A DNA stretch of 64,000 bases from an uncultured Holophagales bacterium. Its GTDB lineage: Bacteria; Acidobacteriota; Thermoanaerobaculia; UBA2201. Under the pieces are notes generated by a model. The model did no database searches. It saw only the letters and a list, made by a program, of their open reading frames with translations, and had not been told where the DNA came from. The stretch's first letter is position 1. Every line of letters starts with the position of its first letter. Position numbers and translations under genes: made by a program. Below are positions 29,724 to 38,957 of the stretch, in pieces. Location: contig CAZRVT010000009.1 of assembly GCA_964603505.1 (NCBI GenBank), positions 309-64,308 of the forward strand. The letters run 5' to 3'.

Positions 29724-32435
<2,712 letters not shown>

Positions 32436-32511
32436 TCGGAGGCCACGGGAGCCCCCCATAAAACGGTGCCTCGCCCGCGCCCCGTAGCGCCCGCGTCCCA
32501 CCCGTCCCCCA

Positions 32512-32541
32512 ACGCCCCCGACCGCCCGGGGGCGTTTTTTT
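32512..32541 (+). terminator. Rho-independent terminator after acnA (GCCCCCG-accgcc-CGGGGGC then GTTTTTTT)
   Basis: A GC stem followed by a 7-T run, about 75 nt after the acnA stop. Confidence 0.8.
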
Positions 32542-32839
32542 CCCGCAAGGCCGTCCCTGGCGTTGCCGGGAGGGCGGAGCCGGGGAGGGCCTCCATTCTC
32601 TCCTGCATCAACGCCGTTGGGGCGGCGCCGGAACACATGATCGCGTTGCGCTGCAGGCCGATAGGACAGCCCTGCCCCTCCGTGGCCATCATGAAGAGGT
32701 CGGCGTTCTCGGGGTCCGCCGCCAGGAGCGCGGGCTTCATGGGGCCGAGGGGGGCGGATCGATGCGCCGGCGGTGGCGCCGCAGGCCTGGCCTGGCCTAT
32801 AATGGAAGCGTGACCCATCTCATCCTGGCGGTGATCCTT

Positions 32840-34291
32840 ATGACGACCCAACTCTCCGTCCGCGAACCGGTGGTGGTGGGGCGGTTCTATCCCGGGGACC
32901 GCGCCGCTCTGCAGAAGGAAGTGAAGGGATACCTGGAAGCCGCCCCCGACCCCAAGATCGAGGGGCCGGTTCTGGCCCTCGTCTCGCCCCACGCGGGGTA
33001 CTCGTTCTCCGGGCCGACGGCGGGCCGGGCGATGAAGGCCCTGGCGGGGAGTGGGGTGAAGCGGGTTCTTTTGATCGGGACGGGGCACGCGGCCTACTAC
33101 GAGCGCGGGGCGGTGCTGGCCGATTACGACGCTTTCGCCACGCCGCTCGGGCCGGTCCCGGTGGACCGCGCGGCCGTGGCCGGGTTGGCGAAACAGGCCG
33201 GCTTCAAGGTGGCCAACCACCTCCATGCGCGGGAGCATTCACTGGAAGTGCAGCTTCCGTTCCTCCAGGAGGTCCTTCGGGAGTTCTCCATCGTTCCGAT
33301 GGTGATGGGGGGGCAGACGACGCCCGAGGACGCCGACGCCGTGGCCCGGGGCCTGCGGCCCCTGCTGGGCGAAAAGACGATCCTGGTCCTCTCCACCGAC
33401 TTCACCCATTACGGCCCCAACTACGACTACGTGCCGTTCCGCGAGGAGGTCTCCGCGCGGATGCGCGCCCTCGATTGGGGGGCGTGGGAGCTGGTGCGCC
33501 CGGGGTTCCAGGAGCGGTTCGCCGCCTACATCGAGACCACCGGAGCGACGGTGTGCGGCGAAAAGGGGCTGATGGTCCTCTGCGCCCTCCTGCCGTCCGG
33601 CGCGAAAAAAACGACGCTTCAATACACCTCCAGCGGCGAGGTCCTCCAGGACTACGACAACGCCGTGGGGTACCTGGCGGGGGCGTTCACCGGGCAGTGG
33701 AACGGCCCGACGCCGACGCCCGCGCGGAAGCCCCATTCCGGCAACCTGGCGGCGGCGGAGAAGAAGGCCCTGGTGCGCCTGGCCCGCGGGGCCCTCGTCT
33801 CGCATGTCGCCGGCGCCGACGACCTCTCCCGCGTCCTGCGGGACCTGGACCTGACTCCGGGCCTGACGGGCGTGGCCGGCGCCTTCGTCACGCTGAAGGT
33901 GGGGGAGGACCTGCGGGGGTGCATCGGCTCCATCGAGGGGCGGGAGCCGCTGTGGCTTTCGGTGGTCCACAACGCCGCCAACGCCGCCACGCGCGATCCC
34001 CGGTTCCGCCCCGTTCGGCCGGAGGAGCTGACGCTTCTTTCGGTCGAGGTCTCGGCCCTCTCCCCCATGAAACCGGTCGCCTCCTACAAGGATATCGTTC
34101 TGGGGACCCATGGGGTCGTGCTGGAGAAACGGGGGCGTAGCGCCGTCTTCCTCCCGCAGGTGGCCACCGAGACGGGGTGGACGCTCGACCAATTCCTCTC
34201 CCACCTGGCGCAGAAGGCGGGGCTGGCGGCTTCGGATTGGAAGGACGGGGCCTCATTCCGCGTTTTCACCGCCGAGGTGATCCATGAATGA
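32840..34291 (+). CDS. Fused AmmeMemoRadiSam system protein B (Memo-like) and protein A (AMMECR1 domain)
   Basis: N-terminal half is Memo-like (VVVGRFYPGD, SPHAGYSFSG, STDFTHYGPNYDY). C-terminal half is AMMECR1-like (GAFVTLKVGEDLRGCIGS, AVFLPQVATETGWTLDQFLSHLAQKAGL). Start set at MTTQLSV (32840). Confidence 0.8.
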   Translation: MTTQLSVREPVVVGRFYPGDRAALQKEVKGYLEAAPDPKIEGPVLALVSPHAGYSFSGPTAGRAMKALAGSGVKRVLLIGTGHAAYYERGAVLADYDAFATPLGPVPVDRAAVAGLAKQAGFKVANHLHAREHSLEVQLPFLQEVLREFSIVPMVMGGQTTPEDADAVARGLRPLLGEKTILVLSTDFTHYGPNYDYVPFREEVSARMRALDWGAWELVRPGFQERFAAYIETTGATVCGEKGLMVLCALLPSGAKKTTLQYTSSGEVLQDYDNAVGYLAGAFTGQWNGPTPTPARKPHSGNLAAAEKKALVRLARGALVSHVAGADDLSRVLRDLDLTPGLTGVAGAFVTLKVGEDLRGCIGSIEGREPLWLSVVHNAANAATRDPRFRPVRPEELTLLSVEVSALSPMKPVASYKDIVLGTHGVVLEKRGRSAVFLPQVATETGWTLDQFLSHLAQKAGLAASDWKDGASFRVFTAEVIHE

Positions 34292-35210
34292 CTGGGACCG
34301 GAGGGAGGTGCTGGCGGGAGTCGTCGGCCTCCTGGCGATGAATCTGCCCGCGGGGACCCCGGCGGCCGCCGATGTCGGCGTGGCCTTCGGGGGAAGTGTT
34401 GAAGAGAAGGCCGCCAAGGCCATCCTCTACTCGACGGGACGGGAGCCGACGGCTTTTTTCCGGTCGGTCCTTTCGCAGAAGGATGTCGTCGGCCTGAAAC
34501 TGAATTGCCTCGCCGGGCGGCCGCTTGCGCCGCGGGTGGAACTGGTGGAGGCGCTGGTGCGGTTCCTCGTCCGGGCCGGGGTGCCCGAGGAGCAGGTGAT
34601 CGTGTGGGAGCGCTCCGACCGCGAGCTCCAGCGGGCCGGGTTCGACCTCCGGACCGAAGGGAAACGGTACCGCTGTTACGGCACCAACGGGCAGTACGAC
34701 AAGGAGGTTTCCGAGAGCCGATCCGTCGGGACCTGCTTCTCGTCTATCCTGTCGCAGCAAATCACCAAACTCATCAATGTGGGGGTCCTCAAGGACCACG
34801 ACCTCGCGGGGGTCTCCGTGGGGCTGAAGAACTACTACGGCGTCATCCACAACCCCAACAAGTACCACGGCAACAACTGCACCCCCGGCGTGGCCCACCT
34901 GGCGAACCATCCCCTCATCCAGGGCAAGCACATTCTGACGGTGATTGACGCCGAGGTGTGCCAATACCACGGCGGCCCGGCCTACCGCGCCGACGCCGTC
35001 GTCCCCTTCGGGGCCGTGGCCGCCTCGGCCGACCTCGTCGCCTGCGATTTCTGGGGCCTGCGCGAAATCGAGCGGATCCGCAAGGAGAAGGGGAAAGGGA
35101 CCCTGGAGGCCGAGAAGCGTGCCCCGCAGTGGCTGAAGGTCGCGGCGGAGATCGGGCTGACGAGGGTTCGCCCCGAGACGCTGAAGGTGGCCACGGACGC
35201 CTCATCGTAG
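34284..35210 (+). CDS. Tat-signal protein, possibly DUF362 family, inserted inside the AmmeMemoRadiSam operon
   Basis: Twin-arginine signal MNDWDRREVLAGVVGLLAMNLPAGTPAAA. The family assignment (DUF362-like) is from memory of motifs and is uncertain. 8-nt ATGAATGA overlap with the upstream gene and 3 nt before the radical SAM gene. Confidence 0.55.
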   Translation: MNDWDRREVLAGVVGLLAMNLPAGTPAAADVGVAFGGSVEEKAAKAILYSTGREPTAFFRSVLSQKDVVGLKLNCLAGRPLAPRVELVEALVRFLVRAGVPEEQVIVWERSDRELQRAGFDLRTEGKRYRCYGTNGQYDKEVSESRSVGTCFSSILSQQITKLINVGVLKDHDLAGVSVGLKNYYGVIHNPNKYHGNNCTPGVAHLANHPLIQGKHILTVIDAEVCQYHGGPAYRADAVVPFGAVAASADLVACDFWGLREIERIRKEKGKGTLEAEKRAPQWLKVAAEIGLTRVRPETLKVATDASS

Positions 35211-35213
35211 CCC

Positions 35214-36287
35214 ATGCCCGAGCCGACGCTCCCTCCCGCCCTCCCCGAGCCCCTGACGGAGGCCGACCGGCAGTTCCCCCCGGTGGAGGCGAAGTACTGG
35301 AAGAAGCTGGACGGCGGACGGGTGGAGTGCGTCCTCTGCCCCGCCCAATGCCGGGTGGCCGACCGGGAGCGGGGGGCCTGCGGCGTGCGGGAGAATCGGG
35401 GCGGCGTCTATTACACGCTCGTCCATTCGCGGGTCTGCTCCGCCCATGTGGACCCCATCGAAAAGAAGCCCCTCTTCCACGTTCTCCCCGGCACCACCGC
35501 CTTCTCCCTGGCCACCCCCGGCTGCAACATGGCCTGCTCCTTCTGCCAGAACTGGGAGATCAGCCAGTTCCGTCCGGAGCAGATCGATTGCCAGAAGCTC
35601 CCGCCGGACCGGGTGCCGCCGCGCGCGAAGCGCTGGGGGGCCCCCACGGTCGCCTTCACCTACACCGAGCCGGTGGTCTTCACCGAGTACCTGCTCGACG
35701 TTGCCGCCGCGAACCGGAAGGAGGGCCTGCGCTCGGTCGTCATCACCAACGGCTGGATCCAGGAGGAACCCCTCAAGGACTGGCTGAAGGCCCTGGATGC
35801 CGTGAAGGTGGACCTCAAGGCCTTCACGCAGAAGTTCTACGAGGAGCAAACCGGCGGGCGGCTCATCGACGTCCTCGACACGCTGATCCGCGTCCGGAAG
35901 GCCGGGGTGTGGCTGGAGATCGTCACTCTCTTGATCCCCACCCTCAACGATTCCGCGAAGGAGGCGGCCTCCCTCGCCCGCTGGGTGGCGAGGAATCTCG
36001 GCCCCGAAGTGCCCCTTCACTTCACCCGGTTCCACCCGGAATACCGCCTCCGCAACCTCCCCGCGACGCCGGTTCGCACCCTCGAGAGGGCCCGCGATGC
36101 CGCCCTGGCCGAGGGGCTGAAGTTCGTCTACCTCGGCAACGTCCCCGGCCATCCCGCCGAGAACACCGCCTGCCCACAGTGCGGCAACGTCATTCTCAAA
36201 CGCTACGCGTTGAGCCTGACCGAGAACCATGTCGTCAAGGGCGCATGCGAATATTGCAAGGCGAAGATTCCGGGGGTGTGGGCCTAA
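35214..36287 (+). CDS. AmmeMemoRadiSam system radical SAM enzyme
   Basis: CNMACSFCQNW (CxxxCxxC radical SAM cluster), N-terminal cysteines (CVLCPAQC...C) and C-terminal CPQCG...CEYC. The architecture matches the radical SAM partner of Memo/AMMECR1. Confidence 0.8.
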   Translation: MPEPTLPPALPEPLTEADRQFPPVEAKYWKKLDGGRVECVLCPAQCRVADRERGACGVRENRGGVYYTLVHSRVCSAHVDPIEKKPLFHVLPGTTAFSLATPGCNMACSFCQNWEISQFRPEQIDCQKLPPDRVPPRAKRWGAPTVAFTYTEPVVFTEYLLDVAAANRKEGLRSVVITNGWIQEEPLKDWLKALDAVKVDLKAFTQKFYEEQTGGRLIDVLDTLIRVRKAGVWLEIVTLLIPTLNDSAKEAASLARWVARNLGPEVPLHFTRFHPEYRLRNLPATPVRTLERARDAALAEGLKFVYLGNVPGHPAENTACPQCGNVILKRYALSLTENHVVKGACEYCKAKIPGVWA

Positions 36288-36384
36288 GATCAGGCGACAG
36301 GGCGCCGGCGGCGGCTAACAAAAAGCGGGCCGCAGGGCCGTAGAGACACCCGTCGCAGGGGCACAGCGGGCGGTGCCCGGCCGC

Positions 36385-36414
36385 TTTACATATTCGCCCA
36401 TCGTCGCTTATAAT
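36385..36414 (+). promoter_or_regulatory. Sigma-70-like promoter TTTACA-17 nt-TATAAT ending 11 nt before the kinase ATG (near-leaderless)
   Basis: Near-consensus hexamers with a 17-nt spacer, then cagatttcact ATG. Confidence 0.55.
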
Positions 36415-36425
36415 CAGATTTCACT

Positions 36426-38957
36426 ATGGAAGGGGATCGGACCGGGAAAAGCACCACGCCGATGCCGCCGCCGGGCATCCATGAATACGCCTTCGAGCGC
36501 GGGCAGCTTCTCCTGGACCGGTTCGAGGTCCTGGAGCCGCTCGGTGTTGGGGGCGTCGGCGAGGTGTATCGGGTCCGGGACCATTGGCTCGGCGAAGAGG
36601 TCGCCCTCAAGATCGTCTTGCGCGGTTCCTTGCGCGCGGTCGATCTGGAGCGGGTCCGGCGCGAAGTCGCCATCGCGAGGAAGCTGAGTCATCCCAACAT
36701 CCTGAAGTATTACGATCTTCATGAATTCGATCGCGGCCTGGCCCTCGGCATGGAGTGGGTCCGGGGCAGCACCCTTCAGGACCTTCTCGACCGTGGGGGG
36801 CCGCTCGACGAGAACACCATCCGGGCCATCCTGCCGCAGATCGTCGAGGCGATGGAGCACCTTCACGCGAACGAGATCGTCCACCGCGACATCAAACCTT
36901 CGAACCTCTTCATCGGCGACGACGGGACGGTCAAGCTGGGGGACTTCGGCATCGTCCACACCGAAGGGGCGGAGGGGCTGACCCTGACGGGGGAGGCGAT
37001 CGGGACTCCCACCTACATGTCCCCGGAGCAGATCCAGGGCAAAAACCTCACGCCCGCCGCGGACTACTATTCTCTGGGGATCACGCTTTACGAACTGGCG
37101 TCCGGCCGGGTCCCCTTCGAGGGGACCTACGGCGAGGTGGCTTCGGCGCACCTTCACCAGCCGCTGTCCGGTGTGTGCGGCTTGCCGCTCTCGGCCCCCC
37201 TGAAGCGGCTCATCCTGGGGCTCCTTGATAAGCGACCGGAACGGCGCTGGGGCGCAATCGAGGCCCGGCATTACTGCACCCGGCGCCGCCTGCCCCTCTT
37301 GCCGCAGCAGCGGCGTCGGGCAGTGATTGCGGCCGCCATCATCTGCCTCGCGGGCGGCGCGGCATTCTTGGCGCCCCGCAGCTTGGCCCGCACCCGGCCA
37401 TTGGAGGTGACCATCGAGGGCCGAACGGTCTCCTGCGCGCAAGCTGGACGGTTGCGATGGCAAAAGAAATTCGATTCCGCCGTCCTCGGACACGTCCTCA
37501 TGGATGTGGACGGCGATGAGGCGGACGAGGTCATTCTCGGATTGCGTCTTCGGGTGTCCTCTGGTTCATCCCCCTCGGCCTTCCCGACATGGAAAGCTTC
37601 CGGGGACCCGGGTCCACCCCTGTTCTTAAATACAGGGCATCTGCTTGATTCCTTTGGCGCCCATTCTCCGAATTATCGGGCGATCATCAAGCGTCAAAAG
37701 TTGTTTTCCAAGAGCCAGGATGATCTCGTCATCTCTTTGCAGCACGAAACCTTTTATCCATTCTATCTCGCTATTTGGAGCGCGGAGCAGAGAAAAGAGA
37801 TCCTTTCGTTGGAGCATCCCGGCTGGATCAATCAAATCGAGCGATGGAAGGACGGCTTAGCCATTTGGGGGGGGAATGCCCGTCTGCTCCATTTGACCTG
37901 CTTGGCCCTCACGGGGCCCGTGGGGAGGGAGGGGACGGCAGATGGATTGGGCCTGGGGGGGGCCCAACCCAATGTTTCAAATCTGCGCGCTTATTATCTG
38001 CTGGAGAATTTCAACACGGGCAGCCAGGTGGCCGAGATGAGCCCGGAGGGCAGCATTCAAGTGCCCTCGTCCAAAGGCGATCTGGTTCTGCGAGACGATA
38101 ATACTCTGGAGGGAATGGGGCCGGGGGCCTCCAACCGCTCTCTTCATTGCTTGCACGCGGTCCTCCAGGTGCGTGAGCAGATGAACATCGGGCGTTGGCC
38201 GGAGGCGGCGAGTTTGATTGAAGAGACACGCAGGATCGCCGAGGAAAGCGGCCTCCAGGGGTGGGAGCTGGTGATGAAATGGCTGGATGCGGAACGCCTC
38301 GCCCGGGAAGGTGATATCGAAGGCGCCGTGAAGAAATGCTTTTCCCTAGTTAAGGAGCACCCCACCCGCGCCCAGGAACTCCCGGTTTGGGCGGGTTATT
38401 ACCGCTATCTCGCGGGGGATTTCGCCGGCGCCCGGACCACCTGGCTGGGACACCCTTCCGCCGCCCTCGTGGGAGGGGGAAAGGAGTGGGAGCTGTATCC
38501 CGCCTGCGTGTTCGCCTCCCTCCTGGAGGGTGTCCCGGACGACCGCCTCCGCGCCATGATCGAGGAATATTCGGCTGGCATGGAACAGGGGTATTACTGG
38601 CGGCGGTTCCTGGCGATGCAGAGAGGGTGGATCCCGCTCCTTCGAGGCGACCCGGCCGCGGCCATCCCGGTGCTTAAGGGCGCCCTGACCGAACCGAGCT
38701 TCGAGCCGCACGCTGCCGGCTACTTCCTGGCCCGCATCCTGACCGGGACCTACGATCCGGCCGAGATGGAGGCCTACGCCGGAAAACAGGGCGGCAACCC
38801 CCTCTACCTCCAGTGGATCGCCGCCGTCGGCGTGGGGGACCGGGACCGTGCCAAGCAGTGTTGGCGGGCGATCGAGTTGGAGGCCTGGGAGTCCCAGGAC
38901 ACGGCGCTGATGGTGCCGGTGATCAACCGCCTGCGGGGCCGCCTGAAGCGCCATTGA
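36426..38957 (+). CDS. Hanks-type Ser/Thr protein kinase with one TM helix and a large unusual C-terminal region
   Basis: LGVGGVGEVY (Gly loop), VALK (lysine), HRDIKPSN (catalytic loop), DFG, GTPTYMSPE. A TM segment AVIAAAIICLAGGAAFLA is followed by ~500 aa with no recognisable domain, including a low-GC stretch (~37560-38120). Confidence 0.9.
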   Translation: MEGDRTGKSTTPMPPPGIHEYAFERGQLLLDRFEVLEPLGVGGVGEVYRVRDHWLGEEVALKIVLRGSLRAVDLERVRREVAIARKLSHPNILKYYDLHEFDRGLALGMEWVRGSTLQDLLDRGGPLDENTIRAILPQIVEAMEHLHANEIVHRDIKPSNLFIGDDGTVKLGDFGIVHTEGAEGLTLTGEAIGTPTYMSPEQIQGKNLTPAADYYSLGITLYELASGRVPFEGTYGEVASAHLHQPLSGVCGLPLSAPLKRLILGLLDKRPERRWGAIEARHYCTRRRLPLLPQQRRRAVIAAAIICLAGGAAFLAPRSLARTRPLEVTIEGRTVSCAQAGRLRWQKKFDSAVLGHVLMDVDGDEADEVILGLRLRVSSGSSPSAFPTWKASGDPGPPLFLNTGHLLDSFGAHSPNYRAIIKRQKLFSKSQDDLVISLQHETFYPFYLAIWSAEQRKEILSLEHPGWINQIERWKDGLAIWGGNARLLHLTCLALTGPVGREGTADGLGLGGAQPNVSNLRAYYLLENFNTGSQVAEMSPEGSIQVPSSKGDLVLRDDNTLEGMGPGASNRSLHCLHAVLQVREQMNIGRWPEAASLIEETRRIAEESGLQGWELVMKWLDAERLAREGDIEGAVKKCFSLVKEHPTRAQELPVWAGYYRYLAGDFAGARTTWLGHPSAALVGGGKEWELYPACVFASLLEGVPDDRLRAMIEEYSAGMEQGYYWRRFLAMQRGWIPLLRGDPAAAIPVLKGALTEPSFEPHAAGYFLARILTGTYDPAEMEAYAGKQGGNPLYLQWIAAVGVGDRDRAKQCWRAIELEAWESQDTALMVPVINRLRGRLKRH

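What the first reader, a model, noticed from the sequence alone, without database searches (positions are those of the whole stretch)
32840..36287. AmmeMemoRadiSam system with Memo and AMMECR1 fused into one protein and a Tat-signal protein (possibly DUF362) inserted before the radical SAM gene
The three AmmeMemoRadiSam components are recognisable: the Memo-like motifs HAGYSFSG and STDFTHYGP, the AMMECR1 motifs GAFVTLK...LRGCIGS and LPQVATETGW, and a radical SAM CNMACSFC with extra N- and C-terminal Cys clusters. Here A and B are one 483-aa polypeptide. Between it and the radical SAM gene lies a 308-aa protein with a clear twin-arginine signal (DRREVLAG...) that I tentatively place in DUF362. 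Its start overlaps the fusion gene by 8 nt (ATGAATGA) and its end is 3 nt before the radical SAM gene, so all three look co-translated. The function of the AmmeMemoRadiSam system is unknown. A fused variant with an apparently exported partner is an informative natural experiment: a periplasmic substrate or maturation target.
Basis: partly seen in the sequence, partly recalled or inferred. Interest (0 to 1): 0.7.

Follow-up and report, generated by a model that had tools for sequence, protein, structure and literature searches.

The report
Envelope-targeted AmmeMemoRadiSam operon with DUF362
This three-gene operon is a widespread acidobacterial version of the enigmatic Memo/AMMECR1/radical-SAM system whose products carry apparent export signals and which has gained a lactate-racemase-like DUF362 partner, suggesting that the system, possibly even the radical SAM enzyme, works outside the cytoplasm.

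The parts
32511..32536 (+). Terminator-like hairpin after the upstream aconitase gene; upstream boundary of the operon
   Evidence: 10-pair stem with 8 G-C pairs, followed by a T run. The aconitase ORF ends at 32435.
32798..32803 (+). Conserved TATAAT, a putative -10 box lying 6 nt upstream of GTG 32810 (possible leaderless mRNA)
   Evidence: TATAAT-N6-GTG is conserved in WIN, L173, L175, L010 and L003, while the 6-nt spacer varies freely. The consensus promoter scan did not call it because there is no -35 match.
32810..34291 (+). Memo (protein B) + AMMECR1 (protein A) fusion gene; favoured start GTG 32810 (493 aa), alternatives ATG 32762 and ATG 32840
   Evidence: Pfam and NCBIfam hits. JGI calls it as 493 aa. 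Memo and AMMECR1 are in one ORF in 54 of 56 related loci.
32810..32857 (+). N-terminal hydrophobic segment (M)THLILAVILMTTQLS ahead of the Memo domain; a short signal-peptide-like or anchor segment
   Evidence: Homologous segments are clear Sec-type signals or lipoboxes in relatives: 49 of 52 signal-like against 5 of 52 in an internal control. Whether it is translated in this clade is inferred.
32867..33679 (+). Memo domain
   Evidence: PF01875, residues 10-280 of the 483-aa version; TIGR04336, residues 8-282.
33773..34279 (+). AMMECR1 domain
   Evidence: PF01871, residues 312-480; TIGR04335, residues 310-480.
34284..35210 (+). DUF362 protein (308 aa) with a LarA-like fold
34284..34370 (+). 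Twin-arginine (Tat-type) leader MNDWDRREVLAGVVGLLAMNLPAGTPAAA; RR codons at 34299-34304
   Evidence: RR is conserved in 110 of 120 homologues. There are 21 uncharged residues after RRE. Residues 1-30 are the low-pLDDT part of the model. Curated Tat HMMs give no hit.
34791..34868 (+). Invariant motif KDHDLAGVSVGLKNYYGVIHNPNKYH (residues 170-195), the candidate cofactor or active site
   Evidence: These columns are invariant in alignment A1. hhalign places H172 on LarA H174 and K182 on LarA K184, but with only 11% probability. The roles of the LarA residues are taken from PMC11770544.
35214..36287 (+). AmmeMemoRadiSam radical SAM enzyme (357 aa), with no leader of its own in this clade
   Evidence: TIGR04337 at 376.6 bits. 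The N-terminus MPEPTLPPALPEP... has no RR or hydrophobic leader, and the same holds in L010, L173 and L175.
35523..35546 (+). Radical SAM CX3CX2C motif (C104, C108, C111)
35328..35381 (+). N-terminal Cys cluster C39-x2-C42-x3-C46-x9-C56
36171..36257 (+). C-terminal CxxC...CxxC cluster (C320, C323, C345, C348)
36385..36414 (+). Promoter-like site (TTTACA-18-TATAAT) of the downstream Ser/Thr kinase gene; downstream boundary of the operon
   Evidence: Matches 11 of 12 consensus positions. It is the only promoter-like site in 32400-36500, against 0.2 expected.

Best explanation
The locus is one transcription unit encoding an envelope-targeted variant of the AmmeMemoRadiSam system. This variant is typical of Acidobacteriota and also occurs in some Myxococcota and other phyla.

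In the variant as a whole:
- The Memo-AMMECR1 fusion has a Sec-type signal peptide or lipobox.
- A LarA-fold DUF362 protein has a twin-arginine leader.
- The radical SAM enzyme normally has its own twin-arginine leader.

The proposed route is that the two proteins expected to fold in the cytoplasm (the Fe-S radical SAM enzyme and DUF362) cross the membrane through Tat, while the fusion crosses through Sec. The system then acts at or beyond the cytoplasmic membrane.

DUF362 is the radical SAM enzyme's closest genetic partner and probably a physical one. It may carry a tethered cofactor on an invariant Lys/His motif.

In the window's own clade the radical SAM enzyme has lost its leader, and its gene starts 1-5 nt after the DUF362 stop. 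It most likely leaves the cytoplasm as a complex with Tat-DUF362 (hitchhiking). This parallels other phyla, where a ~65-aa Tat-leader protein follows leaderless radical SAM genes.

Shown: the domain identities, the gene order and its conservation, the presence and complementarity of the leader sequences, and the LarA-like fold. Inferred: actual export, formation of a DUF362-rSAM complex, any cofactor on DUF362, and the chemistry and substrate.
For: Component identities.

Conserved operon:
- The rSAM lies directly downstream of DUF362 in 75 of 76 species-representative loci with downstream sequence.
- 59 of 80 have the full BA-DUF362-rSAM arrangement.
- Memo and AMMECR1 are in one ORF in 54 of 56.
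- The same order occurs with unrelated flanking genes.
- DUF362+rSAM pairs persist without an adjacent BA gene (6 loci).

Export signals:
- DUF362 RR motif in 110 of 120 homologues.
- BA N-termini signal-like in 49 of 52 DUF362-linked loci against 5 of 52 in the control, and in 66 of 80 BA-anchored metagenome loci. 33 of the 120 closest homologues have lipobox-like motifs.
- The rSAM has its own Tat-like leader in 74 of 79 DUF362 operons.
- rSAM leaders reach the curated TIGR01409 cutoff in 3 of 10 tested, up to 28.3 bits.
- 28 or more of the 150 nearest cluster representatives of the rSAM family carry such leaders.

Cis/trans complementarity: small Tat-leader ORFs occur only with leaderless rSAMs (11 of 11), and none occurs next to an rSAM with its own leader. 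Fisher p = 0.0014.

Window clade: the rSAM is leaderless and tightly abutted to Tat-DUF362 in 5 loci.

Against: - No experimental localisation exists.
- The curated TAT_signal_seq model gives no hit for any of 13 DUF362 leaders. A Pfam scan of three leaders gave no hit.
- Most acidobacterial rSAM leaders of the DRRRLVV type also fail the curated model.
- SAM and a low-potential reductant are not known to be available in the periplasm, so a working exported radical SAM enzyme would be unprecedented as far as I know.
- In the window's clade the rSAM has no leader, and the BA signal segment is short with an uncertain start. This particular clade could therefore have reverted to cytoplasmic A, B and rSAM, with only DUF362 exported.
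- No DUF362-rSAM fusion protein was found among the 150 nearest representatives.
- The LarA residue correspondence rests on an hhalign match of only 11% probability.
- A few loci break the pattern: L009 has BA+DUF362 without an adjacent rSAM. L089 has DUF362 alone. L157 and L172 have a signal-bearing BA with a leaderless rSAM and no Tat partner.
Confidence: 0.5

Rival explanations
1. A, B and the radical SAM enzyme stay in the cytoplasm. There they install a cofactor or post-translational modification on folded DUF362, for example on its invariant Lys182/His172 site. DUF362 is then exported by Tat as the periplasmic client.
For: In the window's clade the rSAM has no leader, and the BA start is ambiguous. 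Tat is the route for proteins folded or cofactor-loaded in the cytoplasm (established knowledge). DUF362 has the fold of LarA, an enzyme that carries a covalently tethered, separately synthesised cofactor. DUF362 is most tightly linked to the rSAM. An rSAM-matured effector that acts in the periplasm has been described (PMC13128918).
Against: In 74 of 79 related operons the rSAM has a Tat-like leader of its own, and BA has a signal peptide in 49 of 52. A purely cytoplasmic maturation machine does not explain either. A DUF362-specific role also cannot explain the many AmmeMemoRadiSam systems that lack DUF362.
Confidence: 0.25
2. Pathway model. The proteins do not form an exported complex. They act in sequence on an envelope molecule that spans or crosses the membrane, such as an isoprenoid lipid, a glycan or a peptidoglycan component. 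DUF362 would be a LarA-like epimerase or isomerase, and Memo and AMMECR1 would be further tailoring enzymes on the outer face.
For: BA lipoboxes place the fusion at the membrane surface. [quoted passage not shown] DUF362 domains are found joined to CBM9 and dockerin modules in extracellular proteins (PMC5742341). From my recollection of Burroughs et al. 2019 (JBC; the paper is not held), Memo contexts were linked to isoprenoid and nucleotide-base modification.
Against: This model does not explain why leaderless rSAMs are always paired with a Tat-leader gene. No lipid or glycan biosynthesis genes are conserved next to the operon, and the flanks differ between loci.
Confidence: 0.15
3. The leaders are not functional export signals. 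They could be vestigial, chaperone-binding or an annotation artefact of Arg/Ala-rich high-GC N-termini. All four domains would then work in the cytoplasm, with DUF362 as a fourth subunit.
For: Curated Tat models give no hit for any DUF362 leader tested and miss many rSAM leaders. Radical SAM chemistry needs SAM and a reductant, both of which are cytoplasmic. Vestigial Tat leaders are known, for example on NarG (established knowledge).
Against: RR is conserved in 110 of 120 DUF362 homologues, including low-GC lineages such as FTRRDFLYF. Some rSAM leaders have the canonical SRRxFLK motif and score 28.3 bits. Unambiguous lipoboxes occur on BA. The leaders are complementary in cis and trans, p = 0.0014.
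Confidence: 0.1

Closest known systems
Canonical AmmeMemoRadiSam system (NCBIfam TIGR04335 protein A, TIGR04336 protein B, TIGR04337 radical SAM enzyme)
   Same: All three models are matched well above their cutoffs, and the genes lie in one operon. As in the canonical system, the function is unknown: the six papers in the library that use the name only mention it in passing.
   Different: A and B are fused, which is common. A DUF362 gene lies between BA and the rSAM. Across the variant, BA, DUF362 and usually the rSAM carry export signals. In contrast, 60 of the 150 nearest rSAM representatives have short, leaderless N-termini.
[quoted passage not shown]
   Different: DUF362 is about 120 residues shorter, has no DUF2088 hit and has only 8-17% identity. 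No counterparts of LarA His108, Arg75 or His200 were established. It carries a Tat-type leader. Whether larB, larC and larE are present was not examined.
Tat 'hitchhiker' export, in which a leader-bearing subunit carries a leaderless cofactor-containing partner (for example the NiFe-hydrogenase small and large subunits), and small 'formate dehydrogenase region TAT target' proteins (TIGR02811)
   Same: A leaderless Fe-S enzyme gene is tightly coupled to a gene whose product bears the twin-arginine leader. That gene is DUF362 here and a ~65-aa protein in other phyla. PMC10924467 states that heterodimer export with one signal peptide is a known Tat mode. The small proteins and some DUF362 leaders give weak TIGR02811 similarity.
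   Different: No complex has been shown. The cargo would be a radical SAM enzyme, and I found no precedent for that in the library.
Radical-SAM maturation of proteins that end up in the periplasm (HXS antiphage system, PMC13128918; quinohemoprotein amine dehydrogenase gamma subunit modified by QhpD, from my own knowledge)
   Same: A radical SAM gene is encoded next to a gene for a protein destined for the periplasm.
   Different: In those systems the radical SAM enzyme itself stays in the cytoplasm and has no export signal. Here most family members have one.

Membership tests
AmmeMemoRadiSam system | Protein B (Memo-like) matches TIGR04336 above its cutoff | tested here: met
   210.7 bits against a cutoff of 26.
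AmmeMemoRadiSam system | Protein A (AMMECR1-like) matches TIGR04335 above its cutoff | tested here: met
   158.6 bits against a cutoff of 99.
AmmeMemoRadiSam system | Radical SAM enzyme matches TIGR04337 above its cutoff and has CX3CX2C | tested here: met
   376.6 bits against a cutoff of 220. C104, C108 and C111 are present.
AmmeMemoRadiSam system | The components are encoded together | tested here: met
   8-nt overlap and 3-nt gap. The arrangement is conserved in 59 of 80 genomes.
DUF362 (Pfam PF04015) | Match above the Pfam gathering score | tested here: met
   66.7 bits against a cutoff of 24, covering profile positions 1-199 of 200.
LarA superfamily (NPN-dependent racemases) | LarA-type fold | tested here: met
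LarA superfamily (NPN-dependent racemases) | Sequence membership (DUF2088/LarA_N profile) | tested here: not met
   No DUF2088 hit at E <= 0.01. The PDB sequence searches found no LarA.
LarA superfamily (NPN-dependent racemases) | Cofactor-binding Lys184, His200 and Arg75, and catalytic His108 and His174 | tested here: inconclusive
   K182 aligns with K184 and H172 with H174 in an hhalign match of 11% probability. The other three residues were not placed. Model coordinates could not be analysed at residue level.
LarA superfamily (NPN-dependent racemases) | Cofactor biosynthesis genes larB, larC and larE in the genome | not tested
   Only a 64-kb window was available, and it was not scanned for lar genes.
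Tat (twin-arginine) substrates: DUF362 product | Z-R-R-x-hydrophobic-hydrophobic motif near the N-terminus, followed by an uncharged h-region | tested here: met
   D-R-R-E-V-L followed by 21 uncharged residues. The family consensus is T-R-R-E-L-A, and RR is present in 110 of 120.
Tat (twin-arginine) substrates: DUF362 product | Recognition by a curated Tat-signal model (TIGR01409 or PF10518) | tested here: not met
   0 of 13 leaders hit TIGR01409, and a Pfam scan of three leaders returned nothing. These models are very short, and HMMER's filters drop weak matches.
Tat (twin-arginine) substrates: DUF362 product | Tat-dependent export | not testable with these tools
   This needs TatP or SignalP 6 and an experiment.
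Tat (twin-arginine) substrates: rSAM of sister clades | Recognition by curated TIGR01409 | tested here: inconclusive
   3 of 10 are above the 16.7-bit cutoff (28.3, 17.6, 16.9), 4 are weaker and 3 give no hit.
Tat hitchhiker pair (DUF362 + leaderless rSAM, window clade) | The leaderless partner gene is adjacent to the leader-bearing partner gene | tested here: met
   WIN, L010, L173, L174 and L175. The analogous small-ORF pairs are 11 of 11.
Tat hitchhiker pair (DUF362 + leaderless rSAM, window clade) | Physical complex formed before export | not testable with these tools
   No multimer prediction or experiment was available. No natural DUF362-rSAM fusion was found among 150 representatives.

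The most novel reading that the evidence does not exclude
Radical SAM chemistry outside the cytoplasm. A whole branch of the AmmeMemoRadiSam family would export its radical SAM enzyme through Tat, either by a leader of its own or by riding on Tat-DUF362 or a ~65-aa Tat-leader protein. The enzyme would then work in the periplasm together with a Sec-exported Memo-AMMECR1 fusion. The LarA-fold DUF362 would act as a cofactor-bearing or electron- or hydride-supplying partner. That would place the long-sought substrate of Memo and AMMECR1 in the cell envelope for these bacteria.
Probability: 0.3. Interest if true: 0.9.

Novelty: new variant of a known kind. Interest (0 to 1): 0.75.

Why it matters
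Memo and AMMECR1 are conserved from archaea to humans and are linked to human disease. The bacterial AmmeMemoRadiSam system has had no known substrate or function since it was defined computationally.

This variant offers three new handles:
1. A conserved fourth component (DUF362) with a recognisable enzyme fold and an invariant Lys/His motif that can be probed by mass spectrometry.
2. A predicted location in the envelope, which narrows the search for a substrate.
3. A clear, testable and surprising prediction that a radical SAM enzyme is a Tat substrate. If true, it would challenge the assumption that radical SAM chemistry is confined to the cytoplasm.

It would also give DUF362, a large family of unknown function, its first functional context.

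Tried and rejected
1. **Read-through fusion of DUF362 and rSAM.** In the window the two ORFs are in the same frame, separated by TAG-CCC. In L010, L173 and L175 the frames differ, so this was rejected.
2. **Natural DUF362-rSAM fusion proteins as Rosetta-stone evidence.** None was found among the 150 nearest representatives. The long ones are fusions with AMMECR1/Memo or with N-terminal multi-TM domains.
3. **'Every exported-BA system has a separate Tat-partner gene.'** This is false. About 13 rSAM-then-BA loci have no room for one, but in most of these the rSAM carries its own leader.
4. **Curated Tat HMMs on DUF362 leaders.** No hits.
5. **Sequence search of the PDB with DUF362 or its profile.** Nothing relevant. 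Only fold comparison found LarA.
6. **Possible homology of the small Tat proteins ('YPGPVRALDEA') to the DUF362 N-terminus ('HPGVVGLADAKA').** Noticed by eye, not tested statistically, and not used.
7. **Literature.** No functional study of AmmeMemoRadiSam, no description of DUF362 linkage and no Tat-leader radical SAM enzyme in the held library. Burroughs et al. 2019 (PMC6664185), the paper most likely to mention such contexts, is not held. Prior description therefore cannot be excluded.
8. **TatA motif in the window.** None found, which is uninformative.

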